Origin: Somniosus microcephalus
Lineage: Eukaryota
NCBI GenBank assembly: GCA_052327205.1
Contig: CM126215.1
Location: 77,438,001-77,502,000 of the forward strand
Reading direction: 5' to 3'
Length of the DNA stretch: 64,000 nucleotides
Of this stretch, positions 444 to 53,946 are shown one piece after another. Position 1 is the first letter of the stretch, and each line of letters starts with the position of its first letter. Under the pieces are notes generated by a model. The model was given only the letters and a program-made list of their open reading frames with translations. It was not told the origin of the DNA and did no database searches. A program made the translations under genes and the position numbers.

Positions 444-1706
444 CTATGCAAATCTGGCCAGGGTAAGTACATCCCTTGCATCCCGGGCAGCCATGTGCTC
501 GCGTGCTGCCGCTGGTCGATACACCGGCACTCTGACCTCCTCCTCCTGCTCCTGCTCCTCCTTCTGCTCCTCCTCCTCCTCCTCCAGATCCTCCTCATCC
601 TCATCTGAGGAGGGCTGGAACTGAGCCGATTGCTCATCAGGAAGCTGCAAGCCACGACGCTGTGCCATGTAGTGCAGTGCACAGCAGACCACGACCATTC
701 TGGAGACCCTGTATGGTGTATACTGCAGGGCTCCACCTGATCGGTCAAGGCAACGGAAGCACATCTTCAACAACCCAATGGTTTGCTCGTTGATGGACCT
801 GGTCGAAGTGTGGCTGGCGTTGTAGTGCTCTTCAGCCTCGTTAGCTGGCCTATTGATTGGCATCATTAGCCACTTCTTCAGGGGGTAGTCTTTGTCACCA
901 AGGAGCCATCCGTTAAGTTGGTTTGACAGATTGAAAAGCGGAGGAACATTAGAGTGCCGCAGGATGAAAGAATCATGGCAACTTCCACAGAACTTGGCAC
1001 AAACATGCAAGAACTCCTTCTTGTGGTTACACACCAGCTGAATGTTGAGGGAGTGGAAGCCCTTTTGGTTGACAAAGATAGCTGGGTTGTTATGGGGTGC
1101 CCTAAGGGCCACATGTGTGCAGTCTATGACGCCCTGCACCATTGGCATGCCTGCCATATTTGCAAATCCAACCAAACGGGTGGTTATACTTGCTTGATCC
1201 CTTGTGAACTGGATGTAATTGTGGGCCTTAGCAAAAAGGGCATCGGTAACCTGCGTGATGCAACTGTGGGCGACCGACTGGGAGATGCCACTGATGTCTG
1301 CTGATGATCCCTGGAAGGAGCCTGAAGCAAAGAAGTTGGGTGCGGTCGTGACTTTGACAGCCACTGGTAAGGGGTGTCCACCCGTTCCTCTGGGCACCAG
1401 GTCTTGCAGCAACAGTCCGCAGATCTCTCGGACAACCTCTCGCGAAAGTCTCAGCCTCCTTTGGCACTGCTGCTCACTCATGTTGAGGTAGCTCATCCTT
1501 TGTCTGTAAACCCTCTATCGGGGGTATCTCCTGCGGCGAGGTGCCTCGATGCGCTGGTGCCTTCTGCCCTGTGCAGCATCAGGTGGCTGAGCAGGAGGTT
1601 GGGTCTCCTGCTGCTGTTGCTCCTGAACTGTCTGGTTCTGATGCTGCTGTGGATGCTCCTCATCCTCATCTGAGGTCCATGCAGAAAGAAAACAAATGGT
1701 TCCCAT
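444..1706 (-). pseudogene. Harbinger (HARBI1-like) DDE transposase with one in-frame stop
   Basis: Motifs [47 protein letters not shown]; ORFs 1515-1772 and 444-1496 share a frame, separated by TAG at 1515-1517. Confidence 0.9.
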
Positions 1707-11600: not shown

Positions 11601-12686
11601 GAATGTATAAATACAACTTTTGTATTTCCTTGCCGTTGTATACAACAGGCACCTTTATTTTTCCTTTGGGGTATACTTTCTGCCCCGTATATGTTTTTAA
11701 GATAATGGATGTGTCTTTTAAAGGTATATGCGGAAATAGCCTCTCATAATCCCGTCGATTTATTACGGCCAGAGCTGATCCTGTATCTAGCTCCATTTTA
11801 ACTGGGGACTCTGCTATCGTGAGGGTAACCCAAATGGTCTGGTAATCATCTTTGGCAAGTACTTTATGTAATTTGAGACAGCTTAGTCTCTTGTTTTTGG
11901 AGTCGCTATCGCTCTTCTGGTCTTTGGAGCTACTTTCCGTCATCATTTGTACCTTTCTGTACTTTTCTTCATTGATTTTTTTTTCCTGTCTGTGGATTTA
12001 TTTTGTCCACATCGGCATACCCGTGCAATGTGTCCAATCTTTCCGCATTGCCTGCATGCTTTGTCCTTGAACCAGCAGTCCCTCTGGTTATGGGTGGATC
12101 TGCCGCAGCGATAACATCTTTCGAAACCCTGTGTCATTTCATGGGTGCCGAAGTCCTGTGTCTTCTGTTGTATCTCTGCAGCTCCTCTTGCTGCTGCTTC
12201 GTATGATACAGCCATACTGAAAGCCTTGTCCAGTGTTAAATCTTTTTCAGAAAGCAGCCTTTTTTGTGTTCCTTCACTTAAGAGACCGCAGATGAATTTG
12301 TCTCGAAGATAATCTGCTAGTCCTGCCCCGAATTGGCAGTGTTTTGATAGCTTTCTTAATTCGGTGAGGTAATCAGCGTTACTTTCATTCTTGTGTTGAT
12401 TTCTCTTGAAGAATTTGAATCATTCTGCTATCAGCAGCGGTGTTGGGTTTAAGTGCTCCTGCAGGGTATCAACAATTTTTTAAAAATCCTTGTCCTTTGG
12501 TTTGGCTGGAGTGATTAAATTTCGTAACAGCCCGTATGCCTTTGCGCCCATTAAATTCAGCAGTACTGAAGCTTTTTTTTCATCTTCTATTCCATTTGCA
12601 GTGCAATATACCTCTACTCATTCCACATATGTGGTCCAATCCTCTATTTCACTATCAAAAGCATCAATATTGCCAGACTTAGGCAT
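8699..12686 (-). pseudogene. gag-pol polyprotein (two CCHC knuckles, protease, RT, RNase H, integrase) with 3 stops and 2 frameshifts
   Basis: CYRCG..H..C and CRQCG..GH..C; LDTGSA; YLDD; CDASPYG; ADGLSR; HHCC; HIDFAG, SDNG, GLAER. Confidence 0.95.
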
Positions 12687-13103
12687 CTTAGAAAAGATAT
12701 GGCGCTTCCCGCGCTTTTCCGCCGCTGCTGCCGATGACAACGCTGTTTCCCGCGGTTTCTGTTCTTTTTTTATTTATTTATTTACAGTTGGAGACTCGTT
12801 CCCGCCGGACTTTCTCTCTAGGTCTGAACGCCGACCTGCTTGCAGCGCCGGCCGTCTCCCGAGTGCTCCCTCCCCGTTTGTTATTGCTTGCCTCTGATTT
12901 CGCTGCTTGTCCCAGCTGTAGAGCCAGCCGCTGGAGCCCCACCCTGACGCCCAGGAAGGATTAGCGCAGTACCTGCCACCAGCTTGGCCAGCTGGTGAAA
13001 CCACAGCTTCTTTCACTTCCTTGAGTCTTCTGGACGCCCGAGGAATCGATGTCCTTGAGGTGCTGCCGAATTGCAGGTAAGTCCGTTTCCACTTCGTCGC
13101 CAC

Positions 13104-25635: not shown

Positions 25636-27940
25636 AGAATCATAGAATGGTTACAGCACAGATGGAGGCCATTCAACCCATCGAGCCCATGCTGGCTCTC
25701 TGCAAGAGCATTTCAGCTAGTCCCACTCCCCCACCCTTTCTCCGTAGCCCTGCAAAAAAAAATTCCTTCAGGTACATGTCCAATTCCCTTTTGAAAGCCA
25801 TGATTGAGTCTGCCTCCACTACCCATTTAGGCAGTGCATTCCAGATCATAACCACTCGCTACATAAAAAAGGTTTTCCTCATGTCGCCTTTGGTTCTTTT
25901 GCCAATCACCTTAAATCTGTGTCCTCTGGTTCTCAACCCTCTGCCAATGGGAACGGTTTCTCTCTATCTACTCTGTCCAGACCCCTCATGATTTTGAACA
26001 CTTCTATCAAATCTCCTCTCAACCTTCTCTGCTGTAAGGAGAACAACCCAGCTTCTCTAGTCTATCCACATAACTGAAGTCCCTCATTCCTGGAACCATT
26101 CTCGTAAATCTTTTCTGCACCCTCGCTAAGGCTTTCACATCCTTCATAAAGTGCGGTGCCCAGAATTGGACACAATACTCCAGTTGAGGCCGAACCAGTG
26201 TTTTATAAAGGTTCATCATAACTTCCTTGCTGTTGTACTCTATTGTCTCTATTTATGAAGCCCAGGATCCCGCTTTCTCAACCTGTCCTGCCACCTTCAA
26301 CTATTTGTGCACATATACCCCCAGGTCTCTCTGTTCATGCACCACCTTTAGGAATATACTCTTTAGCTTATATTGCCTCTTCTCATTCTTCCTACCAAAA
26401 TGTATCACTTTGCACTTTTCTGCATTAAATTTCATCTGCCACGTGTCCGCCCATTTCACCAGCCTGTATATGTCCTTTTGAAGTTTATCACTATCCTCCT
26501 CACTGTTCACTATACTTCCAAGTTTTGTGTCATCTGCAAATTTTGAAATTGTGCCCTGTACACCCAAGTCTAAGTCATTAATATATATCAAGAAAAGCAG
26601 TGGTCCTAGTTCTGAGCCCTGGGGAACACCGCCATTCACCATTACTCTCTGTTTCCTGTCACTTAACCAATTTCGTATCCATGCTGCCACTGTTCATTTT
26701 ATTCCATGGGCTTCAACTTTGCTGGTAAGCCTATTGTGTGGCACTTTATCAAACGTCTTTTGGGAGTCCATGTACACCACGTCAACCACATTGCCCTCAT
26801 CAACCCTCTCTGTTACCTCATCAAAAAAACTCAATCAAGTTAGTTAAATATGATTTGCCTTTAACAAATCCGTGCTGGCTTTCCTTAATTATTCCACACT
26901 TGTCCCAGTAATTGTTACTTTTGTCCCTGATTATCGTTTCTAAAAGCTTCCCCACTACCGAGGTTAAACTGACTAGCCTGTAGTTGCTGAGTTTATCCTT
27001 ACACCCTTTTTTGAACAAGGGTGTAACATTTGCAATTCTCCAGTCTTCTGGCACCACTCCTGTATCTAAGGAAGATTGGAAGATTATGGCCAGTACCTCC
27101 GCAATTTCCACCTTAGCTTCCCCCAGCATCCTAGGATGCATCCCATCTGGTCCTGTTGACTTATCTACTTTAAGTACAGCCAGCCTTTCTAGTACCTCCT
27201 CTTTATCAATTTTTATCTCATCCAGTATTTCCACTACCTCCTCTTTCACTATGACTTTGGCAGCATCTTCTTCCTTAGTGAGGACAGATGCAAAGTACTC
27301 ATTTAGTACCTCAGCCATGCCCTCTGCCTTCATGCATAAGTCTCCTTTTTGGTCCCTAATCGGCCCCCACCCTACTATTACTACCCGTTTACTATTTATA
27401 TGCCTATAGAAGACTTTTGAATTCTCTTTTCTGTTAGCTGCCAGTCTACACCCATACTCTCTCTTTGCTCCTCTTATTTTCTTTTTCATTTCCCCTCTGA
27501 ACTTTCTATATTCAGCCTGATTCTCACTTGTATTCTCAACCTGACATCTGCCATACGTGTTCTTTTTCTGCTTCATCTTACTCAATATCTCTTTCATCAT
27601 CCAGGGAGCTCTGACTTTGATTGCCCTACCTTTCCCCCTCGTGGGAATGTACCTCGACTGTACCCAAACCAACTCTTCTTTAAAGGCAGCCCATTGTTCT
27701 ATTACAGTTTTGCCTGCCAATCTTTGATTCCAATTTACCCGGGTCAGATCCGTTCTCAACCCATTGAAATTGGCCTTCCTCCAATTAAGCATTTTTACTC
27801 TAGATTGCTCCCTGTCCTTTTCCATAGCTAATCTAAACCTTATGATACTATGATCACTGTTCCCTAAATGTTCTCCTACTGACACTTGCTCCATTTGCCC
27901 CACCTCATTCCTCAGAACCAGATCCAGCAATGCCTCCTTG
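25636..27940 (-). mobile_element. 5'-truncated CR1 LINE (second subfamily)
   Basis: ORF2 pieces 26821-27930, 26301-26690 (FADD), 26019-26219 plus 3' UTR. Confidence 0.92.
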
Positions 27941-34504: not shown

Positions 34505-37275
34505 CATACAGGGGTATTCAGTATTTAGGAAGGATCGACAAAAAAGAAAGGGAGGAGGGGTAGCATTGCTAGTAAAAGAGGGGATAAATGCAATTGAAAG
34601 GAAGGATATTAACTCAGTTAATACAGAATCTATATGGGTGGAGCTAAGAAATAGCGAGGGGCGAAAAACATTAATAGGAGTGGTATATAGGCCTCCAAAT
34701 AGTAAAATAGAGGTTAGGGAGGGCATCACGAGGGAAATTAGAGAAGCGTGCAATAAGAGCACAGCTGTCATCATAGGTGACTTTAACTTACATATAGATT
34801 GGACTAGCCTAATCAGTAAAAATAATGAGGAGGAGGAATTCCTTGAGTGTTTGAGGGATGGTTATCTGGATCAATATGTCGAGGAACCAACTCGGGAACA
34901 GGCTATATTGGACTGGGTACTGTGCAATGAGAAGGGACTAATCAGTAATCTTGTTGTACGGGGACCCTTGGGTCAGAGCGATCATAACATGATCGATTTC
35001 TCACTCGAAATGGAGAGCGAAGAAATTGACTCAGAGACTAAGGTCCTGAATTTAAACATGGGGAATTATGATGCCATGAGACGGGAACTGAGTAGGTCTG
35101 ATTGGACAACGTTCCTGGGAGGACTGGAGGTAGATAAACAATGGCAAACATTTAAAGATAGAATGACAAAATTGCAAAAATTGTTTATACCAATCTGGCA
35201 TAAAAGGAAATCTAAAAAGGTGACTCAACCGTGGATAACAGGGGAAATTAGAGACAGCATAAAATCCAAAGATAGGGCGTATAAAATAGCCAAAAAAAGC
35301 GCCAGAGCGGAAGATTGGGAACAGTTTAAGATAGAGCAAAGGAGGGCAAAGGGCATAATCAAGAGGGGCAAAATAGCTTACGAAAACAAGCTGGCGGAAA
35401 ATATAAAAACTAACTCCAAAAGCTTTTATAAGTATATCAAAAGGAAAAGACTGGTGAAAACCAAAGTTGGTCCATTGCAGTCAGATACGGGGGAATATAT
35501 AATGGGAAATAAGGAAATGGCAGATCAACTAAATGCATACTTTGGGTCAGTCTTTACGAAGGAAGACACAAAAAACCTCCCTGGGATATCGGGAAAAATA
35601 GGGACATTGGCAAAGGAGGAACTGACGCAAATCAATATCTCTAAGGATATGGTGTTAAGGAAGCTAAAGGGATTGAAGGTGGACAAATCCCCAGGGCCTG
35701 ATAACATGCATCCTAGGGTACTGAAGGAGGTGGCCCTAGAGATAGCGGATGCACTAAGGATGATTTTTCAGAATTCATTAGACTCGGGAACAGTGCCGAT
35801 GGATTGGAGGGTAGCTAACGTTACCCCACTATTCAAAAAGGGGGGTAGGGAAAAAGCAGGTAATTACAGACCTGTAAGCCTTACATCAGTTGTGGGCAAA
35901 ATGCTGGAGTCCATCATTAAGGATGAAATAGCGGAGCACTTAGCAAATGGGGACAGGATAGGACAGAGTCAACATGGATTTACAAAGGGTAAATCGTGCT
36001 TGACTAATCTATTGGAATTTTTTGAGGGAGTAACTGGTAGAATAGATGGGGGAGAGCCAGTAGATGTGGTGTACCTGGACTTCCAAAAGGCCTTCGATAA
36101 GGTCCCACATAAAAGATTAGCATGGAAAATTGAGGCTCATGGGATAAAGGGGAAAGTTTTGGCGTGGATAGGGAACTGGCTGTCAGATAGAAAACAGAGA
36201 GTTGGAATAAACGGCTCATTTTCTGAATGGCAGGCAGTAACAAGTGGGGTACCACAGGGATCTGTCCTGGGCCCCCAGCTGTTCACAATTTACATTAATG
36301 ACCTGGATCAGGGAGTCGGATGCAGCATTTCCAAATTTGCAGACGACACTAAACTAGGAGGGGGGGTGGGCTCAGAGGAAGAGACCAGGAAGCTCCAGAG
36401 CGATTTGGACAGACTGGGCGATTGGGCGGATAAATGGCAGATGCACTATAATGTGGACAAGTGCGAAGTTATCCACCTTGGGTGCAGGAACGGGAGGGCA
36501 AATTATTATTTAAATGGCAATAGATTGGGAGAGGGGGAAGTACAGAGAGACCTGGGTGTTCTTGCACACCAGTCACTGAAGGCGAGCATGCAGGTGCAAC
36601 AGGCGGTCAAGAAGGCAAACGGTATGCTGGCCTTCATAGCAAAAGGGTTAGAATACAGGAACAGGGATACCTTGCTGCAGCTGTACAGGGCACTGGTGAG
36701 ACCACACCTCGAGTACTGTGTACAGTTTTGGTCGCCTCATCTGAGGAAGGATGTTCTTGCCATGGAGGGGGTGCAGCGGCGATTCACCAGGCTGATACCA
36801 GGAATGGCGGGAATGACCTATGAGGAGAGACTATGTAGTTTAGGGATGTACACACTGGAGTTTAGAAGATTGAGAGGGGACCTCATAGAAGTGTATAAAA
36901 TTCTGACAGGTCTAGACAGACTGGATGCAGAAGGAATGTTTCCCTTGGCGGGTGAGAACAGAACTAGAGGACATAATTTAAGGATAAGGGCTAAACCATT
37001 TAGGACAGAGATGAGGGGGAATTTCTTCACTCAGAGAGTGGTGAACCTGTGGAACTCATTGCCACAGAGGGCAGTGTATGCCAGCTCATTAAATATATTT
37101 AAGAGGGAATTAGATATATTTCTACGGGCAAAAGGGGTTAAGGGTTACGGAGAGAAGGCGGGGACGGGATACTGAATTAAAGGATCAGCCATGATCTCAT
37201 TAAATGGCGGAGCAGGCACGAAGGGCCGAATGGCCTACTCCTGCTCCTATCTTCTATGTATCTATGTATCTATGT
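34505..37275 (+). mobile_element. young 5'-truncated CR1 LINE
   Basis: ATAA duplicated at 34501-34504 and 37276-37279; (TCTATGTA)n tail. Confidence 0.95.
34506..37175 (+). CDS. CR1 ORF2 (partial endonuclease + complete RT), uninterrupted but lacking its 5' start
   Basis: Frame open from the insertion boundary to TGA; GGGVA, YRPP, GDFN, SDHN, QGSVLGP, FADD. Confidence 0.9.
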   Translation: MQGYSVFRKDRQKRKGGGVALLVKEGINAIERKDINSVNTESIWVELRNSEGRKTLIGVVYRPPNSKIEVREGITREIREACNKSTAVIIGDFNLHIDWTSLISKNNEEEEFLECLRDGYLDQYVEEPTREQAILDWVLCNEKGLISNLVVRGPLGQSDHNMIDFSLEMESEEIDSETKVLNLNMGNYDAMRRELSRSDWTTFLGGLEVDKQWQTFKDRMTKLQKLFIPIWHKRKSKKVTQPWITGEIRDSIKSKDRAYKIAKKSARAEDWEQFKIEQRRAKGIIKRGKIAYENKLAENIKTNSKSFYKYIKRKRLVKTKVGPLQSDTGEYIMGNKEMADQLNAYFGSVFTKEDTKNLPGISGKIGTLAKEELTQINISKDMVLRKLKGLKVDKSPGPDNMHPRVLKEVALEIADALRMIFQNSLDSGTVPMDWRVANVTPLFKKGGREKAGNYRPVSLTSVVGKMLESIIKDEIAEHLANGDRIGQSQHGFTKGKSCLTNLLEFFEGVTGRIDGGEPVDVVYLDFQKAFDKVPHKRLAWKIEAHGIKGKVLAWIGNWLSDRKQRVGINGSFSEWQAVTSGVPQGSVLGPQLFTIYINDLDQGVGCSISKFADDTKLGGGVGSEEETRKLQSDLDRLGDWADKWQMHYNVDKCEVIHLGCRNGRANYYLNGNRLGEGEVQRDLGVLAHQSLKASMQVQQAVKKANGMLAFIAKGLEYRNRDTLLQLYRALVRPHLEYCVQFWSPHLRKDVLAMEGVQRRFTRLIPGMAGMTYEERLCSLGMYTLEFRRLRGDLIEVYKILTGLDRLDAEGMFPLAGENRTRGHNLRIRAKPFRTEMRGNFFTQRVVNLWNSLPQRAVYASSLNIFKRELDIFLRAKGVKGYGEKAGTGY

Positions 37276-41475: not shown

Positions 41476-42305
41476 TTCCCCCTAGTTCTCCCCGCCTATC
41501 TAGCTCAAATAACCTGTCCACTTAAAAAGAATGTAATCCCTTCATTATTTTAAACATCATAATCGTATCTTCCCCATACAAATCTCCTGTTCCCTAAGCC
41601 TATCCTGATACTTAAGGTCCCATAAACTTGGACCTTTTCCAGAGGTTCAATATCTCCCCTCCCCCACCAGGTGAGTGGACCAAAAATGAACACAGTATCT
41701 AGATGTGGCTGAACCAAAGCCTTGTACCAGGTAAGGATTGTATTTACAGTTTTATATTTAATTGTCCTAGCTATATATCCAACAGTCTATTCGCTTTTGC
41801 AACAACATGGATTACATAGGATATACGGCACCGAAACAGGCCATTCGGCCCAACCAGTACATGCTGGCGTTTATGCTCCACTCGAGCCTCCTCCCGTCTT
41901 TCCTCACCTAACTCTATCAGCGTAACCCTCTATTCCCGTTTCCCTCATATGCTTGTCTAGTCTCCCCTTAAATGCATCTATAATATTCACTTCAACCACT
42001 CCCTGTGGTAGCAAGTTCCACATTCTCACCACTCTTTGGGTAAAGAAGTTTCTTCTGAATTCCCTATTGGATTTCTTGGTGACTATCTTATATTGATGGC
42101 CTCTAGTTATGCTCTTCCCCACGAGTGGAAAGATTCTCTCTGTATCCACTCTATCAAAATCTTTTATAATTTTAAAGACCTCTATTAGGTCACCCCTCAG
42201 TCTTCTTTTTTCAAGAGAAAAGAGACCCAGACTGTTCATCCTTTCCTGATATTTATACCCTCACATTTCTGGTATCATCCTTGTAAATCTCCTCTACACC
42301 CTCTC

Positions 42306-42560
42306 TGTAAAGTCTGTGGGTTGTACAGTTAATAACGACACAGACTTCAGGAATAACAAACAAACAGGTCTTTACTATTCGAAGGTCAGGGCGAATCTGC
42401 CCAAGGAATCATGCCACAACACTTATATACCGGTGTGGTCACCGTCGGTATTACAGTATACAGAAGCCAAACAAGTAGTGCCACACCTAAAGTAGTTCTC
42501 TTAAAGGTGAACGGTTACATACAATAGTTCTCTTAAAGGTAGACGGGTACATACACTACA
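42306..42560 (-). repeat. 3' LTR of element 2
   Basis: Direct repeat of 47323-47577; contains an internal ~32-bp tandem duplication. Confidence 0.97.
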
Positions 42561-42943
42561 ATCCTCCCTTTTTAGCTTATTACATACAGAGTCCCCATTA
42601 AACATAACATATCTTCAACTTCATATAAAACAATTTACAGACATAGTCTCAGTGGGAAACAGTTCACAGGTTCAGTCTCTGCAGGAACAGTTCACAGATT
42701 CAGTCTCTGATCTTGACTCGGTCCGAACAACATCTCTTTGGTGTAGGTGGTTCACATTGCTAGCGTGACTCCTCCATATCCTTTTCTTGACGTAACAGCT
42801 TGAACTTTCGTCCTGCTGAACCAGCAGTGCTGACTTTTACAACAACTGGGTTGCCTTGATATTTTCCTACTTCCCAACTGATTTAACTCCTTTCGTAGGG
42901 TCCACGCATGATCTGGTAGAAGTGATAATATTTGCGATAGTTA

Positions 42944-45900
42944 TCATCCTCTGCTTCTTCTTTTTCTTTTCTGCTTTTTGGAGACTCTCGGGGCTCCCTT
43001 ATCAGCTGCCAGCTGTAGCGCCACCAACTCTCTATGTTCCTTCGACTTTAAGTGCTTCATCCTGATTTCGGCACTTTGGGAGTTTTCATCACAAACTGGG
43101 CAGACCACATCCTCGTAATGTTCAGTGTCACTCAACAGGTCATGGTAATATTCGGGTTCGTCCTGAGTTAGGCCAGCGAGAGGGCCTTCTACTTCCTCCT
43201 TACCCATCTGAACGTTAGCTGACTGTGGTTCCTTCCCTAGACATCTTTCTTGAAAAGACTTCTTCATGCATTCATCTTCATTCCGCTCTTCCTGGGTTTC
43301 CTGCAAATCCTTCACTAATGACCTCATTTGTGATTTCAATACTTCCCCTTCCCTCGGGGATTGATTGATCGGGCTATTCAATCCTTCTACTGGAGCAGCT
43401 GTTTCAACATTCTGTTGTTCACATAGACGCGATTCAGCGTACTTTTGGCATCCCAGTAAAGTCTGTTTTGCAACCTCAGCTATTTCCCAAACTTTTGAGA
43501 GCTCTGAACTCCTTCCCGTTGAAGATTGAAGCTCGTGTTCAGATTGTTCCCATTGCAGAGTCTTTTCCCTCAGCATATGAAGGAGTTGGCTGACTGTTAA
43601 CTCTTCCACGGGAACACTGTGGATCAGAGTCTTCTCCATTTCATCCACCTTTTCCTCCAATGCTTCCACCCTCTGTTCCTCTTGTACTTTGGCTTTCAGC
43701 GCTCGGAAAAGTTGCGCCCTGATACTCTCTAGCTCATGTTCAGGGACCATTCTTACAGTCTCTGTGTTTCTTACAGTTTCCTTTTCTTCCACTGAAAGGA
43801 TTCCCAGTTGAATCTGTTCTTCAAGTTGTTGAACCTCGGACATTGCCGCCTCATATTTGTCTTGGGTTTCCTTCAATATTTTTATGAGTTCTTGGACATC
43901 TTGTCTTTCATGTTCTGCCATGTCTTTCACCTCTAATTTCTCATCTATGGATGGAACTTCTACCGATGAGTCTGTCTTGGCCTTGAGCTCATCAAGAATT
44001 TCCTGCAGCCTTTGGACTTCTTGCTCATGTTCAACCTTTAGTTGTTCATATGCTTCTACTGAAACTAGCTTTTCGGAGGTTGCCGAGTTAACCCCCTCCA
44101 GAATTGTAGCCTGGGCCTGTTCATACTGTTCTTTCAACTTCTCACACTCTGCTTGTAAGGAGTCGTAGAGAAGAACTGGAATAACATCCTGGCTTCCTGA
44201 AGATTCCTCTTCATTTGCTTCTTTCACAATTTCCTGTTGGAGTTCAGCCAAGGCTGCTATGCTATCTGCCTCTCGAAGTCTCACTGCCATCAAATCTTCT
44301 TTATTCTTGCAGTCTATCTCAGCCATTTTCCGATTACTTTCATTTAACTGAGTGAGTAGTCCCTTATTCTGGGCTGAGAGATATTGCACCTTCTCATGTA
44401 GACCATAGCACTCCTTCTCTGCTCGACATAGCTGGTTACTGCTGATTTGGTTCTGTGTTTCAAGTTCCAACATCCTTTGCTTAGCTTCTTTCAGTTTCGC
44501 CCCTATAAGCTCCTCTTGCAACATGACCACATTATTCACATCAGGTAAAGAAGCGTTTCTCTTTTCCATGTCCAAGATTTTTTCCTGCATATCTTTAAGT
44601 GCACACTGCGATTCAGCTTCTCTTAACCTTGCTTGCACTAGCTCCGTCTCCAATTGCAGAACAAAATCCTCAGTGTAGCGTGGTTTGCCTTTATGCTGTA
44701 TCTCTAGATCATGCAAATATTCTAACTCCTGAACATCATAAGGGAGATGTGATCGGTAATTGGTCACGATGGCTCTATGGTCGCTCTTTGCTTGAGCTAG
44801 CTGCCTCTGCTGTCTTTCCAGGTTCTCCCATTCGGTGTCCCAGAACTTTTCCATTGTTTTCATCTCTTGTACGAGACGGTAACCCAACTGTTCTAATTGT
44901 TGTCGTACTTTGAAATAAGTTTGAGTCCGAGTTCGGTGTTCTTCCGTCGTGGATAAGTCCTTAATTTGAACAGGCTCAGAATTCTCTGTCAAACTGGAGT
45001 TCTGCTCTGAAGCTTTATTCTTCTCGGTGGCATAAGCCTTTATGCATGTCTTCGTTTTCTCCACCATAGTCGGCAAGTTCATTTTAGCCTTGTCTTCCAT
45101 ATTTGAGTTGGTCTTATCGTCATCCGTTTCAGAATCTGAGCTGATAGCTTGCACCGAGTCCTCACTCATTATGGCTTTTAGATAGTGCCATTCCATGTCT
45201 ATTTTCTTGATCCACTCTCGTCCTAGAAGTGGTGGTCCTCCCTCAGATAATACGTACAAGTTCATTCTTGGGTGTTCTTTACCCCTATCTCTCACCTTGA
45301 CTCTTATCTTCCCCATGGGGTATACCTTATGCCCTGTGTATGTCTGCAATACGAACTTGGTATTTCTTAAGGGTATGTGAGAGAATAGCCGGTGGTAGTC
45401 TCTTCGATTTATGACTGATAGAGCTGATCCAGTGTCCAACTCCATTCTTACTTGGACTCCAGCTATTTTTAGTATGACCCAGATAGTTTGTAGGTCAGCT
45501 TCCTTACTCACATTGTGAATTCTCAGACTACCCAGCTCCTGGCTGTTTGGGTCTGAGTCTGAATTCTGTTCGTCTGAACTCTTCTCAGCCACCTTGTGTA
45601 CCTTGTTGTACTTTTCTTGTGGTGGCTTCCTTTGGCTGTTGGTCTTCTTCCCTGACTGGCACACCTTAGCGATGTGACCCAGTTTGCCACATTTCCTACA
45701 TTCTTGGTTCTTAAACCAGCATTGATTCTGGTCGTGTGTTGTCTTCCCACAACGATAGCATTTTGTTGTACTTGAGGTAATTTGGTCCACCCCAAGTGCC
45801 GCCGCCTTTAGCTGCATTTCCGCCGTTCCTTTCGCTGCGGCTTCGTGCGATGCGGCTATAAGGACAGCCCTGTCAAGTATGAGGTCGTTCTCTTCGAGTA

Positions 45901-46270
45901 GTCGCTTTTGTGTCCCTTCCTTGGACAATCCGCATACGAACTTGTCTCGCAGTGCCTCTGTCAGATTCCCTCCGAACTGGCAGCATTTCGCTAGCCTACG
46001 CAGTTCGACCAAATATTCCGCGTTGCTTTCGTCTTTCCGTTGCGTTCTTGCATAGAATTTGAATCGTTCAGCCAACATCAATGGTGTGGGGTTCAAGTGG
46101 TCCTTCAGAACAGCCACAATCCCTTCAAAAGTCTGATCCGCCGGTTTAGCTGGTGCTAGTAGATGCTTCAAGAGCCCGTATGTCTTTGCGCCCATCGAGT
46201 TTAGCAATGTTATCGCTTTGTCGTCTTCCTCTATTTTGTTGGCTTCACAATAGATCTCGATGCGTTCCAC
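42944..46270 (-). CDS. chimeric polyprotein: Gag + aspartic protease + EVI5-like + ANKRD24/RAI14-like + optineurin-like + DNAJC21-like segments
   Basis: 1108 open codons; two CCHC knuckles (aa 171-204), LDTGSA (aa 278-283), then host-like coiled coils and a C2H2 finger. Likely true ATG at 46330 is followed by TGA at codon 4. Confidence 0.85.
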   Translation of the reverse strand: MERIEIYCEANKIEEDDKAITLLNSMGAKTYGLLKHLLAPAKPADQTFEGIVAVLKDHLNPTPLMLAERFKFYARTQRKDESNAEYLVELRRLAKCCQFGGNLTEALRDKFVCGLSKEGTQKRLLEENDLILDRAVLIAASHEAAAKGTAEMQLKAAALGVDQITSSTTKCYRCGKTTHDQNQCWFKNQECRKCGKLGHIAKVCQSGKKTNSQRKPPQEKYNKVHKVAEKSSDEQNSDSDPNSQELGSLRIHNVSKEADLQTIWVILKIAGVQVRMELDTGSALSVINRRDYHRLFSHIPLRNTKFVLQTYTGHKVYPMGKIRVKVRDRGKEHPRMNLYVLSEGGPPLLGREWIKKIDMEWHYLKAIMSEDSVQAISSDSETDDDKTNSNMEDKAKMNLPTMVEKTKTCIKAYATEKNKASEQNSSLTENSEPVQIKDLSTTEEHRTRTQTYFKVRQQLEQLGYRLVQEMKTMEKFWDTEWENLERQQRQLAQAKSDHRAIVTNYRSHLPYDVQELEYLHDLEIQHKGKPRYTEDFVLQLETELVQARLREAESQCALKDMQEKILDMEKRNASLPDVNNVVMLQEELIGAKLKEAKQRMLELETQNQISSNQLCRAEKECYGLHEKVQYLSAQNKGLLTQLNESNRKMAEIDCKNKEDLMAVRLREADSIAALAELQQEIVKEANEEESSGSQDVIPVLLYDSLQAECEKLKEQYEQAQATILEGVNSATSEKLVSVEAYEQLKVEHEQEVQRLQEILDELKAKTDSSVEVPSIDEKLEVKDMAEHERQDVQELIKILKETQDKYEAAMSEVQQLEEQIQLGILSVEEKETVRNTETVRMVPEHELESIRAQLFRALKAKVQEEQRVEALEEKVDEMEKTLIHSVPVEELTVSQLLHMLREKTLQWEQSEHELQSSTGRSSELSKVWEIAEVAKQTLLGCQKYAESRLCEQQNVETAAPVEGLNSPINQSPREGEVLKSQMRSLVKDLQETQEERNEDECMKKSFQERCLGKEPQSANVQMGKEEVEGPLAGLTQDEPEYYHDLLSDTEHYEDVVCPVCDENSQSAEIRMKHLKSKEHRELVALQLAADKGAPRVSKKQKRKRRSRG

Positions 46271-46584
46271 GTACGTGGCCCAGTCTTCTATCTCAGAATT
46301 AAAATCGTTAATATTCCCTCACTTAGGCATCTTCCTTTCCTTGGGAGCAGCACAAGTATTTCTTTAAATTCTTATTTATTATTTATTTATTTCTAAGATG
46401 GCGGTTTTTCCCGCGAAAATGGCGGTTTCCCGCTCTTTCCTTCTCTCCCCGCCCCTTCAATGGCGGTCTCCCGCGTCTGTCGTCTTCTCCGCCTAATGGT
46501 GGCTTCCCGCGTTTCTTCCCTGGTGGGAGGGATACGCTTTCCCCACAGCGGACAGGTTCAGCCGCTGGGCTGGCTTCCGCACAG

Positions 46585-46810
46585 CTCCCCTTACTCGGCT
46601 CTGTCTTTCTCTCCCGCTCGCACGGCTCTACCGGCGCTGGGTACCCTGTTCACGGAGAACAGTTCAGCCGCTGGACTGGCTCTCGCGCAGCCTCTCTCCC
46701 CTTGCTCGGCTCTGTCTCTCTCTCCCCCACGTTCGGCTCTACCGGCGCTGGGTACCCCGTTGGTGGAGAACAGTTCAGCCGCTGGACTGGCTCTCGCGCA
46801 GCCTCCTTTA
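46585..46810. repeat. GC-rich tandem duplication, period 111 bp, in the leader of element 2
   Basis: GGAGAACAGTTCAGCCGCTGGACTGGCTCTCGCGCAGCCTC at 46654 and 46765. Confidence 0.9.
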
Positions 46811-47322
46811 GTCGGCTCTGCCTCTCCCACACGCCCGGCTCCCGTTCGCCTCCCAGCCCTCACGCAGTCCGGTGCTTCCCTCCCCGGCTGCGGCTGAGTT
46901 TCTCTCTTCCCGCGCCTGCTCCCGGTCTCAGCGCTTCGTGGCTTCGGTCGCTGCCCGGCTTTTCCCGCCGATCGCGGTCCGGCTATCTCACGACGCCGTC
47001 GGACCCGCCTTCCTGACCAGCTCTGCTCCCCCTCGACCGTGGTCGAGTGAAAACCCCTATCCTCCGGATTTCGTTACACCTTCCCCTACTCACAGTCTCC
47101 GCGGCCGCCTTGTTTCCTGCTGATCGGCTCACTCCGCACCGTGGTAGAAGGGTAGTCAGTGCCTGTTGCTGCTGGAAGCTTTTGTTGCTAAAGTCTTCCT
47201 CCTTTCTATTGCTGCAGCCTCGTGTTTTCTTCCAGCAGAACGACGAGGGCGGTTGCCTCTCTTCGACGCTCTTTAGTTGCTTTGGTAGTCTTGCCGCAGG
47301 GTACGATCGGACTTGTCGCCAC

Positions 47323-47577
47323 TGTAAAGTCTGTGGGTTGTACAGTTAATAACGACACAGACTTCAGGAATAACAAACAAACAGGTCTTTACTATTCGAA
47401 GGTCAGGGCGAATTTGCCCAAGGAATCATGCCACAACACTTATATACCGGTGTGGTCACCGTCGGTATTACAGTATACAGAAGCCAAACAAGTAGTGCCA
47501 CACCTAAAGTAGTTCTCTTAAAGGTGAACGGTTACATACAATAGTTCTCTTAAAGGTAGACGGGTACATACACTACA
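47323..47577 (-). repeat. 5' LTR of element 2
   Basis: Direct repeat of 42306-42560, adjacent to the PBS. Confidence 0.97.
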
Positions 47578-48194
47578 CTCTCCAGTCCCTCTATATCCTT
47601 TTTATAATATGGTGTCCAGAACTGCACGCAGTACTCTAAGTGTGGTCTAACCAAGGTTCGATACAGGTTTAGCATAACTTCCCTACTTTTCAATTCTATA
47701 CCTCTAGAAATAAACCCTAGTGCTTGGTTTGCTTTATTTATGGCCTTGCTAACTTGTGTTGCAACTTTTAATGATTTGTGTATTTGTACTCCTAGATCCC
47801 TTTGTTCCTCTACCCCATCCAGACTCGCACCCTCCAAGTGATAAGTGACCTCCCTATTCTTCCTACCAAAATGTAATACCTCACATTTATTTGTGTTGAA
47901 CTTCATTTGCCAATTATTTGCCCATTCCGCAAGTTTATTAATGTCCTCCTGTAATTTCTTGCAGTCCTCCTCAGTATTGATTATCCCCCCCAATTTGGTG
48001 TCATCTGAAAATTTAGAAATTGTGTTTTTGATTCCAAAGACTAAATCGTTAATGTAAATTGTGAACAGCAGTGGTCCCAGCACTGATCCTGGTGGAACAC
48101 CACTACCCACCTTCTGCCACTGTGAATAGCTACCCTTTACTCCTACTCTCTGCTTTCTGTCCTGAAGCCAGCCAGCAATCCATTCTGCTAGTAC

Positions 48195-50315
48195 GATAGC
48201 AAAATACTGCAGATGCTGGAAATCCGAAATAACAACAGGAAATGCTGGAAAAATTCAGCAGGTCAGGCAACATCCATGGAGAGAAAATAGAGTCAACGTT
48301 TCAGGTCAAACCCTTTGTCAAGACTGGAAAAGCACAGGAAATAAAATAGATTAAAAGCCCGGGCTGGGAGAGAACAAAAGAGAAGTGCAGAGACATTAAG
48401 AGGTATTCAAAACGAGACGAGATGGTGATAGGACTAGTGGAGACAAAAGATGGCTCTAGATTAGGTGTGAAATGTGCTGGCCGAATGGGAGACAGCTGCC
48501 ATGTGGGAGAGAAAAAAAGGTGGGGGGGGGGAAAGGGCCAAAACAAAGGTGTGGATAAAAAATAAGTAAAAATATAATGGGGGCCGAGGTTATGATCTGA
48601 AATTGTTGAACTCGATATTGAGTCCGGAAGGCTATAAAGTGCCTAATCGGAAGATAAGGTGCTGTTCCTCGAGCTTACGCTGAGCTTCTGTGGAACAATG
48701 CAAGAGCCCGAGTACAGTGAGGTCTGAGTGGGAATGGAGCGGTGAATTGAAATGACAGGCGACCGGAAGCTCGGGGTCATCCTTACGACTGAACGGAGGT
48801 ATTCCGCAAAGCGGTCACCCAATCTGCGTTTGGTCTCCCCAATGTAGAGGAGACCACATTGTGAGCAGCGAATACAGTATACTAGATTGCAAGAAGTACA
48901 AGTAAATCGCTGTTTCACCTGGAAGGGGTGTTTGGGGCCCTGGACAGTGGGAAGGGGGGAGGTATAAGGGCAGGTGTTGCATCTCCTGCGCTTGCACGGG
49001 AAGGTGCCGGGCGAAGGGGAAGGGGTGCTGGGGGTGATAGAGGAGTGGACTAGGGTGTCTCAGAGGGAGCGGTCCCTACGGAATGCTGAAAGGGGAGGGG
49101 AGGGGAAGATGCATTTGGTGGTGGGATCACTTTGGAGGTGGCGGAAATGGCGGAGGATGACCCGTTGAATGTGGAGGCTGGTGGGGTGAAAGGTGAGGAC
49201 AAGGGGAACCCTATCGTGGTTCCAGGAGGGAGGGGCAGGTGTGAGGGCAGAAGTGCGGGAGATAGAACGGACACGATCGAGGGCCGTGTCAACCACGGTA
49301 GAGGGGAATCCTCGGTTGAGGAAAAAGGAAGACATGTCGGAAGCACTGGTGTGGAAGGTGCCATCGTCAGAGCAGATGCGGCGGAGATGGAGACACTGGG
49401 AGAATGGAATAGAGTCCTTACAGGAGGCGGGGTGGGAGGAAGTGTAGTCCAGGTAGCTGTGGGAGTCAGTGGGCTTGTAGTGAATGTTGGTTAATAACCT
49501 ATCCCCAGAGATGGAGACGGAGAAGTTGAGGAAGGGAAGGGAAAAATCAGAGATGGACCATGTGAAGGTGAGGGAAGGGTGGAAATTGGAGGCAAAGTGA
49601 ATGAAATTGTCTAGTTCAGGGCGAGAGCAGGAAACGGCACCGATACAGTCATCAATGTACCGGAAAAAGAGGTGAGGGAGGGGACCCGAGTAGGACTGGA
49701 ACAAAGAGTGTTCCACATATCCCACGAAAAGGCAGGCATAGCTAGGACCCATGCGGGTACCCATGGCAACACCTTTGATTTGGAGGAAACGAGTGGAGTC
49801 AAAGGAGAAGTTGTTCAATGTGAGAACAAGTTCAGCCAGGCGGAAGAGGGTAGTGGTGGGTGGGGACTGGTCGGGCCTCTGTTCAAGGAAGAAGCGGAGC
49901 GCCTTCAGGCCACCCTGGTGGGGGATGGAGGTGTAGAGGGATTGTACGTCCATGGTGAAAAGGAGGCGGTTGGGGCTAGGAAACTGGAAACTGTTAAAGT
50001 GGTGGAGGGCGTCTGAAGAGTCGCGGATGTAGGTGGGAAGAGACTAGACAAGGGGAGAAAAGATAGAGTCGAGATAGGAAGAGATAAGGTCGGTGGGGCA
50101 AGAACAGGCTGAAACGATGGGTCTACCAGGGCAGTCCGGTTTGTAGATCTTGGGAAGGAGGTAGAAGCGGGCTGTGCGGGGTTGGGGAACTATGAGGTTG
50201 GTGGCCACGGGGGGAAGATCTCCAGAGGAGATGAGGTCAGTGACAGTCTTGGAAATGGTGGGTTGATGTTTGGTAGTGGGGTCATGGTCCAGGTGGAGGT
50301 AGGAGGAGGTGTCTT
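48195..50315 (-). mobile_element. 5'-truncated Penelope-like element (RT + GIY-YIG endonuclease), disrupted
   Basis: LLPKIYK..PGRPIVS, DVQSLYT, GVAMG, RYIDD (49060-49953); VYCIRC..CGLLYIGETKR (48643-48918). Confidence 0.93.
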
Positions 50316-51213: not shown

Positions 51214-53946
51214 TGTATTGATTTCTTTGTGGGTTCAATGACGAGACATTTATGAAAGAGAATGTCTTTTTAATCTAAAGTCTGTTCAACTCTTTATACA
51301 GCATTTACAGGAGACATCATGCCAGTGATGCATCTAGAACGAAACTGAAACTAAACCAAACTGCTTGTCTCTGTCACATGACCTCTGCTGGTCAGGCATA
51401 AGTAATCAATACCTGCAACTATGCTGGTAAGGCATGATAATCAAACAGGCAAATAACATCACTATTTGCTGATATCATTACATCTCCCTTTCTTAAAACA
51501 AAAGTATTTTACTTTTAACTAACAACATGTTTTCTTTGTATTAATCTGCATTTTAACTGTAACACTTAATGAACTTACATTAACATTATCATTATCAAGG
51601 TTTTTTAACCTTGCTTTGTGTGTTCACATGAAATATGTAAATGCACTAGAACTTGAAGAAAGAATAAGATAACATTACTTCCTTCTATAACAATAGTCCT
51701 TAAATTTGCTCAATGAGTCTCTCAGGAGGCTTCACGCGTCTTGAGGATTTTCTGATTGATTGTCCTTGAATCTGAGTTGTTGCCTCAGATGATGTGTTCT
51801 CAGCTGTGTGATCAGGTTGTTCAACAGTATCAGTCTCTTGACCTGCTGTGGCTGGTCCCATGAGAAGATCTCGGCGATTTCTTCTCAGAACAGCACCCTC
51901 ATCTGTCTGAATGGTGTATGATCTTGGTTGAACTTCACTCAGGACAGTTCCCTTCTGAGTCCATGTGTTTGTTTTGTCTTTGAACCTTACTTGGTCACCA
52001 GTGTGGAGTTCAGGTAGGTTTTGTGTTCCTCTGTCATAGTAGTACTTTTGCTTTTCTTTCTGTTGCTCTTTGAACTTCCTCACTTTCTCCCCCTCTTTTG
52101 TTTTCAGGAGGTTCTCCGGGATGGGTAGGTTTGACCTTAGCATACGTCCCATAAGGAGTTGGGCTGGTGACATACCACACTCGAGCGGCGTTGTGCGGTA
52201 TACAAGCATGCTCTGGTAGAAGTCAGTTCCACTGTCTTTTGCCTTGCACATCAGTCTTTTCACTGTGTTTGCGGGCTCTCCTGGGTCAACAGCTCTGGAC
52301 AACGTGTCTGCTGTATACATCAGCTTACCCGGTGTGTACGCAACATTCAGTTCATCATAGACTGTCTCTCCTTCGCTTTCCACAACGAGGACTCTCTTTA
52401 CCAGGTTCAGTCTCTCACAGGCTTTTAAACCTAGTATGGCTTGCACATCCTTTGGCACCACGATTAATGCTAGCGTGTGCTCTCTGTCCTTGTGTGTTAC
52501 TTTGACAATGCATCTTCCTTTCACTGGTATATCAGTACCTGTGTATCCTGTCACTTTCACTTTTATTCCATGTATCTTTGGTCTGGGTCTAATTTTCTTA
52601 AAATCAGTCTCTGATATCACATTAACTTGTGCTCCAGTATCCAATTTAAATGGAATATGTATGTCATTCACTTTTAGTGTCAACATCCAGTCTCTTTCTT
52701 CTTTTTTGTTTTCAGACACAACATCTACATAGAACTCCTCTATCTCACTTTCATCTACTGTATGGACCTTGCTTTGTTGCGCTTGGTTCTTGCAGCAACG
52801 GGCATAATGGTTGTTTTTGTTGCAACTATTGCATGTTTTACCATATGCTGGACACTTTCTTGGTGTATGCTGTGTACCGCATCGACTACATGACTTTCGA
52901 TTGTCCCTTTCATGTTTGTTCGCTGGCCACGCCTCTTTTTTCACATTGGCGCTCTTTTTGTTAACCGGTTTGTGTCCGTTCATTCTCACTGCATCCACGT
53001 TGCAGCTATTATCACTGAACAGCTCCTTTGCCTGCAACTTCACAGTCTCTGTAGCCCTACACAGTGCTATGGCTTTTCCCAGGTCTAGATCTTGCTCTCT
53101 TAGCAGTCTTTCCCTTAGACCATTATCTGGAATACCACACACCAGTCTGTCTTTTATCAGCGAGTCTGTCAGTCCCCCAAATTCACACGATTTGCTTCGG
53201 TTTCTCAGTTCAGTCACATACTGATCAATAGTCTCACCCGTTTTCTGTACACATGTGAAAAATCTGTGCCTCTCAAACGTCACGTTACGTTTAGGTATGC
53301 AGTAGGCCTCAAACTGTTCCATTATTTTATCTAGCTTCATTTTGTCTCCATCAGCAGCGAATGTGAAGTTATTATACACCTCCAGCGCTTCATCACCCAC
53401 GACATGTAAGAACAGTGACGATTTCCTTTTATTACTTTTCTCGTCAGCTCCGATTGCTGATAAATACAACCCCACACGTTGTTTGAATCTCCTCCAATTT
53501 TCAGCCACATTACCTGTCAACTGAAGCTTCGCCGGTGGGAGTAAACCTTCCATTTTTCACTTCGTTAGCTATTCTCTAATGGTAAGTAACAATGTTCTCT
53601 TTTGGCTTGCTAATTTGTGGAGAGCTGATTTAACTTCAGATTTTTTCTCTTCATCTCTTTCAGCCACTTCTGACACCATGTATTGATTTCTTTGTGGGTT
53701 CAATGACGAGACATTTATGAAAGAGAATGTCTTTTAATCTAAAGCTTGTTCAACTCTTTATACAGCATTTACAGGAGACATCATGCTAGTGATGCATCTA
53801 GAACAAAACTGAAACTAAACCAAACTGCTTGTCTCTGTCACATGACCTCTGCTGGTCAGCCATAAGTAATCAATACCTGCAACTATGCTGGTAAGGCATG
53901 ATAATCAAACAGGCAAATAACATCACTATTTGCTGATATCATTACA
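51214..53946 (-). mobile_element. internally deleted Gypsy LTR retrotransposon (element 3)
   Basis: LTRs 51214-51482 and 53679-53946 (about 5 substitutions + 1 indel by eye), TSD CACTC, PBS TGGTGTCAGAAGTGG (tRNA-Leu-like), PPT AAGAAAGGGAGA. Confidence 0.96.
51700..53553 (-). CDS. Gag-protease fused in frame to the RNase H tail and integrase C-terminus (617 aa)
   Basis: CSRCG..H..CPA..CNSC..NHY..C; LDTGAQ; YTPGK..ADTLSR; YRTTP...SPAQLLMGR; RRNRR; no YxDD. Confidence 0.9.
   Translation of the reverse strand: MEGLLPPAKLQLTGNVAENWRRFKQRVGLYLSAIGADEKSNKRKSSLFLHVVGDEALEVYNNFTFAADGDKMKLDKIMEQFEAYCIPKRNVTFERHRFFTCVQKTGETIDQYVTELRNRSKSCEFGGLTDSLIKDRLVCGIPDNGLRERLLREQDLDLGKAIALCRATETVKLQAKELFSDNSCNVDAVRMNGHKPVNKKSANVKKEAWPANKHERDNRKSCSRCGTQHTPRKCPAYGKTCNSCNKNNHYARCCKNQAQQSKVHTVDESEIEEFYVDVVSENKKEERDWMLTLKVNDIHIPFKLDTGAQVNVISETDFKKIRPRPKIHGIKVKVTGYTGTDIPVKGRCIVKVTHKDREHTLALIVVPKDVQAILGLKACERLNLVKRVLVVESEGETVYDELNVAYTPGKLMYTADTLSRAVDPGEPANTVKRLMCKAKDSGTDFYQSMLVYRTTPLECGMSPAQLLMGRMLRSNLPIPENLLKTKEGEKVRKFKEQQKEKQKYYYDRGTQNLPELHTGDQVRFKDKTNTWTQKGTVLSEVQPRSYTIQTDEGAVLRRNRRDLLMGPATAGQETDTVEQPDHTAENTSSEATTQIQGQSIRKSSRRVKPPERLIEQI

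What the first reader, a model, noticed from the sequence alone, without database searches (positions are those of the whole stretch)
44228..44701. Captured EVI5 coiled-coil segment with an internal in-frame deletion
aa 524-681 (EDFVLQLETELVQARLREAESQCALKDMQEKILDMEKRNASLPD...QYLSAQNKGLLTQL...MAVRLREADSIAALAEL) closely follows the EVI5 C-terminal coiled coil as I recall it, more than EVI5L. The region between KLKEA and KQRMLELETQ present in EVI5 is missing, plausibly by recombination between repeated LREA motifs. The stretch should span several exons yet has no introns, implying an mRNA donor.
Basis: partly seen in the sequence, partly recalled or inferred. Interest (0 to 1): 0.85.

Follow-up and report, generated by a model that had tools for sequence, protein, structure and literature searches.

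The report
Retrotransposon built from captured circular RNAs
A young, high-copy shark retrotransposon has replaced its own copying enzymes with nested pieces of host genes, three of which show the head-to-tail exon join of circular RNAs, so circular RNAs appear to have been copied repeatedly into one open protein frame.

Summary
The EVI5 capture is real, but its donor is most likely a circular RNA. The 486-nt piece (44711-44226, minus strand) is about 97% identical to five host EVI5 exons spread over 45 kb. It starts with the last 16 nt of exon E joined exactly to the first base of exon A (a back-splice junction) and ends one base before it began: one turn of a 678-nt circle, less a 192-nt in-frame deletion. 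It lies in a 5.3-kb gypsy-type LTR element whose single frame is gag-protease plus about 740 host-derived residues, with no RT or integrase; 1,235 genomic sites carry the junction. The tail is a nested mosaic of STK10, ANKRD24, EVI5, OPTN and a zinc finger. ANKRD24 and STK10 also show exact back-splice junctions, and sister copies keep earlier stages, including a whole STK10 circle. Gag-protease is under strong purifying selection (w about 0.1), the tail weakly (0.3-0.4), EVI5 not detectably. LTR-mediated capture and circRNA-derived pseudogenes are known; serial, in-frame, full-turn capture in an active family was not found in my nine literature searches. The host circles themselves were not observed as RNA.

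The parts
47322..47575 (-). 5' LTR (254 nt, TG...CA)
   Evidence: 99% identical to the 3' LTR; 5-nt target duplication CTCTC on both sides
47300..47321 (-). primer-binding-site-like stretch (TGG directly after the LTR)
   Evidence: sequence; priming tRNA not identified
46556..46841 (-). leader with 106-111 nt tandem repeats
45650..46330 (-). Gag with two CCHC zinc knuckles; this copy has a stop at the fourth codon (46321-46319), next ATG at 46195
45200..45490 (-). aspartic protease (LDTGS)
   Evidence: Pfam PF13975/PF13650, E 1e-4, below curated cut-off in this copy, above it in sister P0189
44805..45166 (-). diverged remnant of the STK10 capture (two blocks)
44729..44804 (-). ANKRD24-like: last ~11 nt of exon Y plus whole 66-nt exon Z
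44712..44728 (-). ANKRD24-like exon X, first 17 nt; back-splice junction Z|X lies between 44729 and 44728
44696..44711 (-). EVI5 exon E, last 16 nt; back-splice junction E|A lies between 44696 and 44695
   Evidence: 16 of 16 nt match exon E, 10 of 16 match the rival upstream exon
44226..44695 (-). EVI5 exons A, B (part), C (part), D, E (first 80 nt); 192-nt in-frame deletion at about 44496
43600..44225 (-). ANKRD24-like exon X continued (coiled coil), 96% identical to host
43190..43606 (-). OPTN piece, colinear over four exons, joined to ANKRD24 by a 7-nt shared word
42944..43189 (-). diverged C2H2 (jaz-type) zinc finger and basic end; donor probably DNAJC21 (name recalled, not shown)
42559..42573 (-). 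polypurine tract
   Evidence: sequence
42305..42558 (-). 3' LTR

Best explanation
The EVI5 piece is a retro-copy of a back-spliced EVI5 circle (exons A-E, 678 nt, all phase 0) inside a non-autonomous gypsy-type LTR element. Shown: the element keeps its own Gag-protease, lacks RT/RNase H/integrase, spreads with 5-nt target duplications, and carries exon-end-to-exon-start joins from EVI5, ANKRD24 and STK10. Inferred: it borrows Pol from autonomous relatives. A host circle is co-packaged; during minus-strand synthesis RT jumps onto it at a short shared word (TTGC for EVI5), copies once round, meets the template already cut by its own RNase H, and is forced back to the element RNA at the same word. 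One word serves both jumps, nothing is lost from the element, and a circle of 3n bases keeps the frame. Captures that keep the frame open survive. My favoured reason (about 55%) is that the RNA must be translated through to its old integrase-end stop to stay stable and be packaged with its own Gag, so the tail is mostly frame-keeping, soluble helical filler; about 30% that the coiled coil itself has a job.
For: Junctions exact at GT-AG splice sites: EVI5, ANKRD24, STK10 in 12 of 12 loci examined, 9 at 40/40 nt and 3 at 39/40 (loci were picked by the stretch before the join). One full turn: 17 of 18 copies hold exon E nt 1-80 and 81-96, the window copy differs at one base; span equal in 18 of 18. 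L089 holds the whole STK10 circle, 1,245 nt between two copies of an 11-nt word, 97-100% like host exons. A copy without EVI5 reads straight through the insertion site (L092), as do reads and DNA contigs. Chance that an in-frame backward jump hits an exon end and an exon start: 2e-4, 2e-5, 5e-5; at most 2e-3 if 2-3 shared bases are required (partial exon sets). Shared bases at these joins are 1-3, against 4-11 at element/host switches. Each EVI5 exon occurs once in 228 kb of host DNA. 1,235 sites with the EVI5 junction 21-mer, control 0. Gag-protease w 0.09-0.13 in 10 pairwise comparisons. The large in-ORF joints seen in reads are all multiples of three: 150, 78, 90, net 486.
Against: No host circle was observed as RNA: one search lists no such joint, and the libraries are not on record as circle-enriched. 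One X1 contig of 680 nt ends at exon A's start and exon E's end, but alternative splicing on both sides explains that too. ANKRD24 is not a full turn in any copy seen. OPTN is colinear, without a back-splice join. The STK10 capture coincides with loss of RT-RNase H-integrase, which one shared word alone does not explain; the exact autonomous parent was not found. The tail's w (0.29, 0.43) is below most of the neutral simulations (means 0.54-0.72, lowest runs 0.41-0.51), so pure filler is too simple. Two-base deletions also occur in reads, 4 of 9 sibling copies have a stop, and this copy has one.
Confidence: 0.75

Rival explanations
1. Same circular donors, but the insert arrived as DNA: a circular cDNA of the circle recombined once with the element at the shared word.
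For: A single crossover also gives exactly one permuted turn with no loss at the site; STK10 shows the shared word at both ends.
Against: Needs a closed cDNA circle and recombination over 4 nt. All captures are sense and inside a packaged RNA, and the colinear OPTN capture has 7-11 nt words at both ends, as template switching predicts (PMC5131818 passages).
Confidence: 0.1
2. The donors were linear RNAs with scrambled exons, from trans-splicing or a tandemly duplicated allele.
For: Such RNAs carry the same junction; PMC4897178 itself warns that non-colinear junctions have other sources.
Against: No duplication in 228 kb of EVI5. A linear donor gives no reason for entry and exit to be adjacent bases, as in EVI5 and STK10, and it would have to happen in three genes.
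Confidence: 0.07
3. RT made the head-to-tail joins itself by an extra jump on ordinary mRNA.
For: Exon ends share (C)AG, and RT is known to fake circle junctions (10.1101/259556, search listing only).
Against: Only 1-3 shared bases; chance 2e-3 to 5e-5 per join even when shared bases are required; three of three permuted pieces are joined at splice sites.
Confidence: 0.03
4. On function: the captured coiled coils are selected as proteins. After protease cleavage, or as part of Gag, the tail oligomerises particles or acts as a decoy for partners of OPTN (autophagy, TBK1) or EVI5 (Rab trafficking), and the basic end may be a nuclear signal. Partner names are recalled.
For: Tail w 0.29-0.43 between element lineages, below neutral means. 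Four donors gave helical, E/Q/K-rich parts, never their catalytic or ankyrin domains; the low-confidence model is almost all helix (pLDDT 53.5). The family is transcribed in sense across the ORF.
Against: EVI5 piece: 10 replacement versus 2 silent shared changes. The OPTN piece has a stretch scrambled by compensating frameshifts. Sisters swap freely among OPTN, zinc finger, Ig domains and others. Purine-rich coiled-coil exons supply shared words and phase-0 circles anyway.
Confidence: 0.3

Closest known systems
LTR-mediated retroposition (Tan et al. 2016, PMC5131818; passages read)
   Same: Host RNA pieces replace part of the internal ORFs between two LTRs; short shared words at junctions (median 6 bp there); several parents; sense and often in frame; further rounds as non-autonomous elements.
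   Different: That paper's main text has no occurrence of 'circular'. Here donors are back-spliced, copied for one turn, nested, fused to a Gag-protease under purifying selection, and amplified past 1,200 copies.
circRNA-derived pseudogenes, mouse circRFWD2 (Dong et al. 2016, PMC4897178; whole main text read, supplements not opened)
   Same: Genomic copies with an exon-end to exon-start junction; 33 copies, with MMERVK10C-int LTR sequence marked beside them.
   Different: One gene, described as pseudogenes, mechanism called 'mysterious'; no in-frame Gag fusion, serial capture or one-turn rule in the main text.
Maize Bs1 (seen only as described in PMC5131818 and PMC7264820 passages)
   Same: LTR element carrying pieces of several host genes.
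   Different: No circular donors in the passages seen; plant element.
Crocodilian ERV captures of KIT-ligand and nectin3 (PMC4299795; passages read)
   Same: Host coding RNA in a vertebrate LTR element, frame kept, purifying selection.
   Different: Whole linear mRNAs, separate ORFs, 6-9 copies, retroviral lineage.

Membership tests
Ty3/gypsy-type LTR retrotransposon | TG...CA LTRs, PBS, PPT, short target duplication | tested here: met
   clear 5-nt duplication in 17 of 21 loci
Ty3/gypsy-type LTR retrotransposon | Pol order PR-RT-RH-IN | tested here: not met
   absent from the element; present in that order in the relative in L065, gag-protease region 67% identical to founder copy L089. So: a non-autonomous derivative
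Ty3/gypsy-type LTR retrotransposon | placement by RT phylogeny | not tested
   no tree was built
LTR-mediated retrocopy (Tan 2016) | intronless host RNA between two LTRs, replacing internal ORFs | tested here: met
LTR-mediated retrocopy (Tan 2016) | short shared words at switch points | tested here: met
   4 nt (EVI5), 7 nt (ANKRD24/OPTN), 9 and about 7 nt (OPTN in sister), 11 nt (STK10); not tested against a null
circRNA-derived retrocopy (Dong 2016) | non-colinear exon-exon junction at splice sites | tested here: met
   EVI5, ANKRD24, STK10; not met for OPTN
circRNA-derived retrocopy (Dong 2016) | no sequence from exons outside the circle | tested here: met
   no DNA match of the element to other fetched EVI5 exons, nor of L089 to other fetched STK10 exons
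circRNA-derived retrocopy (Dong 2016) | the parent circle is seen as an expressed RNA | tested here: inconclusive
   one search shows no such joint; element transcripts carry the same junction
EVI5 (Rab-GAP) gene | TBC catalytic domain | tested here: not met
   only part of the coiled coil is present; a fragment, not a paralogue

The most novel reading that the evidence does not exclude
In this lineage circular RNAs are the preferred cargo of an LTR element: one-turn copying of phase-0 circles is a repeatable, frame-safe way of building protein, and the Gag-fused coiled-coil mosaic (STK10, ANKRD24, EVI5, OPTN, zinc finger) is selected because it helps the element, for example as a decoy against host autophagy or innate sensing. 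The family would then be a dated fossil record of germ-line circular RNAs and a natural exon-permuting machine.
Probability: 0.25. Interest if true: 0.93.

Novelty: new variant of a known kind. Interest (0 to 1): 0.8.

Why it matters
How circular RNAs get back into genomes was left open in 2016 (PMC4897178). Here three independent cases sit in one young family with base-exact junctions, preserved intermediates and more than a thousand copies. They give a testable rule: one shared word, one turn, frame kept. They imply that circles are packaged in retrotransposon particles in the germ line, and that circle capture can make new, circularly permuted protein. A practical point: element transcripts carry host back-splice junctions and would be miscalled as circRNAs in this species.

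Tried and rejected
EVI5L as donor: no DNA match. The alternative upstream EVI5 exon as source of the 16 nt: 10 of 16 versus 16 of 16. Tandem duplication in the host gene: none in 228 kb. Exon skipping as cause of the 192-nt deletion: both breakpoints lie inside exons; a search with the deleted peptide gave 5 candidates, 4 in host EVI5/EVI5L and 1 weak other (E 0.3), so no undeleted element copy was seen. Naming the zinc-finger donor: PF21884 found another gene, DNAJC2-like by recall, and no DNA match in 70 kb beside it; representative, PDB and atlas searches gave only jaz-type fingers, two atlas clusters with a zuotin-homology domain at 0.84-0.88, so DNAJC21 stays a recalled lead. Run search: no RNA holder listed on record; two raw RNA runs came in by species label only. 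Single-sequence fold: low confidence, not searched further. No tRNA gene in the window. Earlier scan notes: none. Four genome searches returned no answer. Nine literature searches listed no paper whose title or abstract start describes serial in-frame capture of circles; most subscription papers are not covered. No complex prediction was run: no specific binding claim is made.

Full report
Observation. The reported peptide lies in a minus-strand frame of 1,124 codons (46318-42947). The 120 listed best of 3,053 hits are EVI5-family proteins, led by sharks and rays. I located host EVI5 on contig C3 and EVI5L on C31 and mapped the exons. The piece matches five GT-AG exons, A to E, spread over about 45 kb, at about 97% overall, and crosses four splice junctions. 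EVI5L gives no DNA match. A 192-nt in-frame deletion joins an imperfect repeat in exon B to one in exon C (13 of 18 nt).

Host element. The frame belongs to a 5,271-nt element (47575-42305) with 254-nt LTRs 99% alike, a 5-nt target duplication, a PBS-like stretch and a polypurine tract. It encodes Gag with zinc knuckles and a protease, but no RT or integrase. All 25 candidates scored of 11,889 were full-length copies at 98-100%. A 21-mer over the EVI5 junction occurs at 1,235 sites with up to one mismatch, control 0. Of nine sibling copies, five keep one open frame and four have a stop; the window copy has a stop at codon four. Relatives with PR-RT-RH-IN order exist (L065; window 8699-12689).

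The tail is a mosaic. After the protease come STK10, ANKRD24-like, EVI5, ANKRD24-like again, OPTN and a jaz-type zinc finger whose donor I could not name from a call (DNAJC21 is recalled). Hosts were mapped on C13, C17 and C8.

Circular donors. The EVI5 piece begins with the last 16 nt of exon E, 16 of 16, joined to the first base of exon A; the other candidate upstream exon fits 10 of 16. It ends at base 80 of exon E in 17 of 18 copies, so bases 81-96 and 1-80 make exactly one turn of a 678-nt circle; 678 minus 192 is the 486 nt observed. It is inserted 17 nt into ANKRD24 exon X without loss; L092 lacks it and reads straight through. ANKRD24 shows the same thing: the end of its 66-nt exon Z is joined to the first base of the upstream exon X. 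STK10 is permuted too: L089 carries the whole circle, 97-100% like host exons, between two copies of an 11-nt word 1,245 nt apart, in place of RT-RNase H-integrase; the exon-end/exon-start join is present in 12 of 12 loci examined, which were picked by the stretch before it. In the window family this join has been overwritten by later captures. An in-frame backward jump would land on an exon end and an exon start with chance 2e-4, 2e-5 and 5e-5, at most 2e-3 if shared bases are required (8, 5 and 7 exons used, a few ends approximate). Each EVI5 exon occurs once in 228 kb. OPTN is colinear, with shared words at both ends.

Order of events, inferred from surviving forms: STK10 circle replaces pol (L089); internal deletion (L086, L088); inserts into it, OPTN (L062-L067), zinc finger (L090, L091) or Ig domains (L087); then ANKRD24 and recombination among these (L092); last, EVI5. 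No tree was built, and lower silent divergence in the tail than in gag (0.125 versus 0.27) shows recombination between lineages. LTR pairs are 98.4-99.6% alike in 19 of the 20 loci where a pair was found, so these forms moved recently side by side.

Mechanism. Forced and dynamic copy choice are established for retroviral RT (PMC3187697, passages). On a circle, RT returns after one turn to RNA already cut by its RNase H and must switch. This explains adjacent entry and exit, no loss at the site, and the need for only one shared word. That step is inference; a DNA-circle crossover gives the same product. The loss of pol with the STK10 capture is not explained by it.

Selection and expression. 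Gag-protease has w 0.09-0.13 in ten comparisons among non-autonomous copies, so the protein is needed in cis. The whole tail has w 0.29 and 0.43 between element lineages, against stop-purged neutral means of 0.54-0.72 with lowest runs 0.41-0.51: weak constraint. EVI5 shows 10 replacement and 2 silent shared changes, as expected without constraint, on small numbers. In one stranded RNA run of a same-labelled species 13,866 reads lay on the internal region, mostly in the direction that marks sense RNA; at one EVI5 site 66 of 214 such reads had the host letter, so most are element-type. Reads cannot be assigned to this copy. The second RNA run showed no clear strand. No host circle was seen. A single-sequence model of the tail is nearly all helix, at low confidence.

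Known and new. Capture between LTRs with short shared words, several parents and in-frame products is described (PMC5131818, passages; Bs1 via PMC7264820, passages; PMC4299795, passages). Genomic copies of circles are described, one beside an LTR element (PMC4897178, whole main text; its supplements, unread, may detail those junctions). Nine searches listed nothing on serial, one-turn, in-frame capture of circles in an active Gag-encoding family; the library lacks most subscription papers. Whether other sharks have the family is untested; no Gag fusion was among the listed hits.

Verdict. A new variant of a known kind, with unusually clean evidence on an open mechanism. Circular donor about 0.88; copying by RT one-turn switching 0.75; tail useful as protein 0.3. 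Interest 0.8.

Noticed in passing
window 8699-12689 (-): Autonomous-type gypsy relative in pieces (gag-protease 65% like the element, RT-RNase H, integrase); its integrase end matches the end of the sister subfamilies' ORF.
   Followed up: partly
window 51700-53553 (-): An unrelated gag-protease runs in one open 617-codon frame into what looks like an integrase end, with no RT and no host piece among the four tested: the same frame-keeping without capture.
   Followed up: partly
window 41904-42304 and 47576-48254 (-): The element interrupts a LINE-like reverse-transcriptase fragment, CR1-like by recall.
   Followed up: no
window 444-1496 (-): Open 350-codon DDE_Tnp_4 transposase-like ORF.
   Followed up: no
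window 26821-27894, 34989-37175, 49060-49953: LINE-type RT ORFs or fragments.
   Followed up: no
L092 (G000:C13:62.867-62.872 Mb): A copy with ANKRD24 but without EVI5 lies antisense in an intron of the ANKRD24-like donor gene itself; probably chance given the copy number.
   Followed up: partly
L087:3815-4775 (-): Sister copy with about 320 residues of titin/obscurin-like Ig domains inserted in frame in the STK10 circle; donor not located.
   Followed up: partly
L084 and L085, after the protease: In-frame insert of about 155 residues with a zinc-finger-like motif, origin unknown.
   Followed up: no
L062:5018-5896: The colinear OPTN piece starts about 6-9 nt after an exon start and ends about 4 nt before an exon end; those exon ends are out of phase, so only a capture that skips the join keeps the frame. 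Suggests a near-complete turn of a circle.
   Followed up: partly
L062-L067, L084-L087, L091 ORF ends: The integrase-derived end has become a run of arginines, where L088 and L089 keep an integrase-like end; the window family ends in a different basic run.
   Followed up: no
window 44354-44505 and 44570-44649: Reads show further in-frame deletions (150 and 78 nt) inside the EVI5 piece; the 150-nt one is also in DNA contigs.
   Followed up: no
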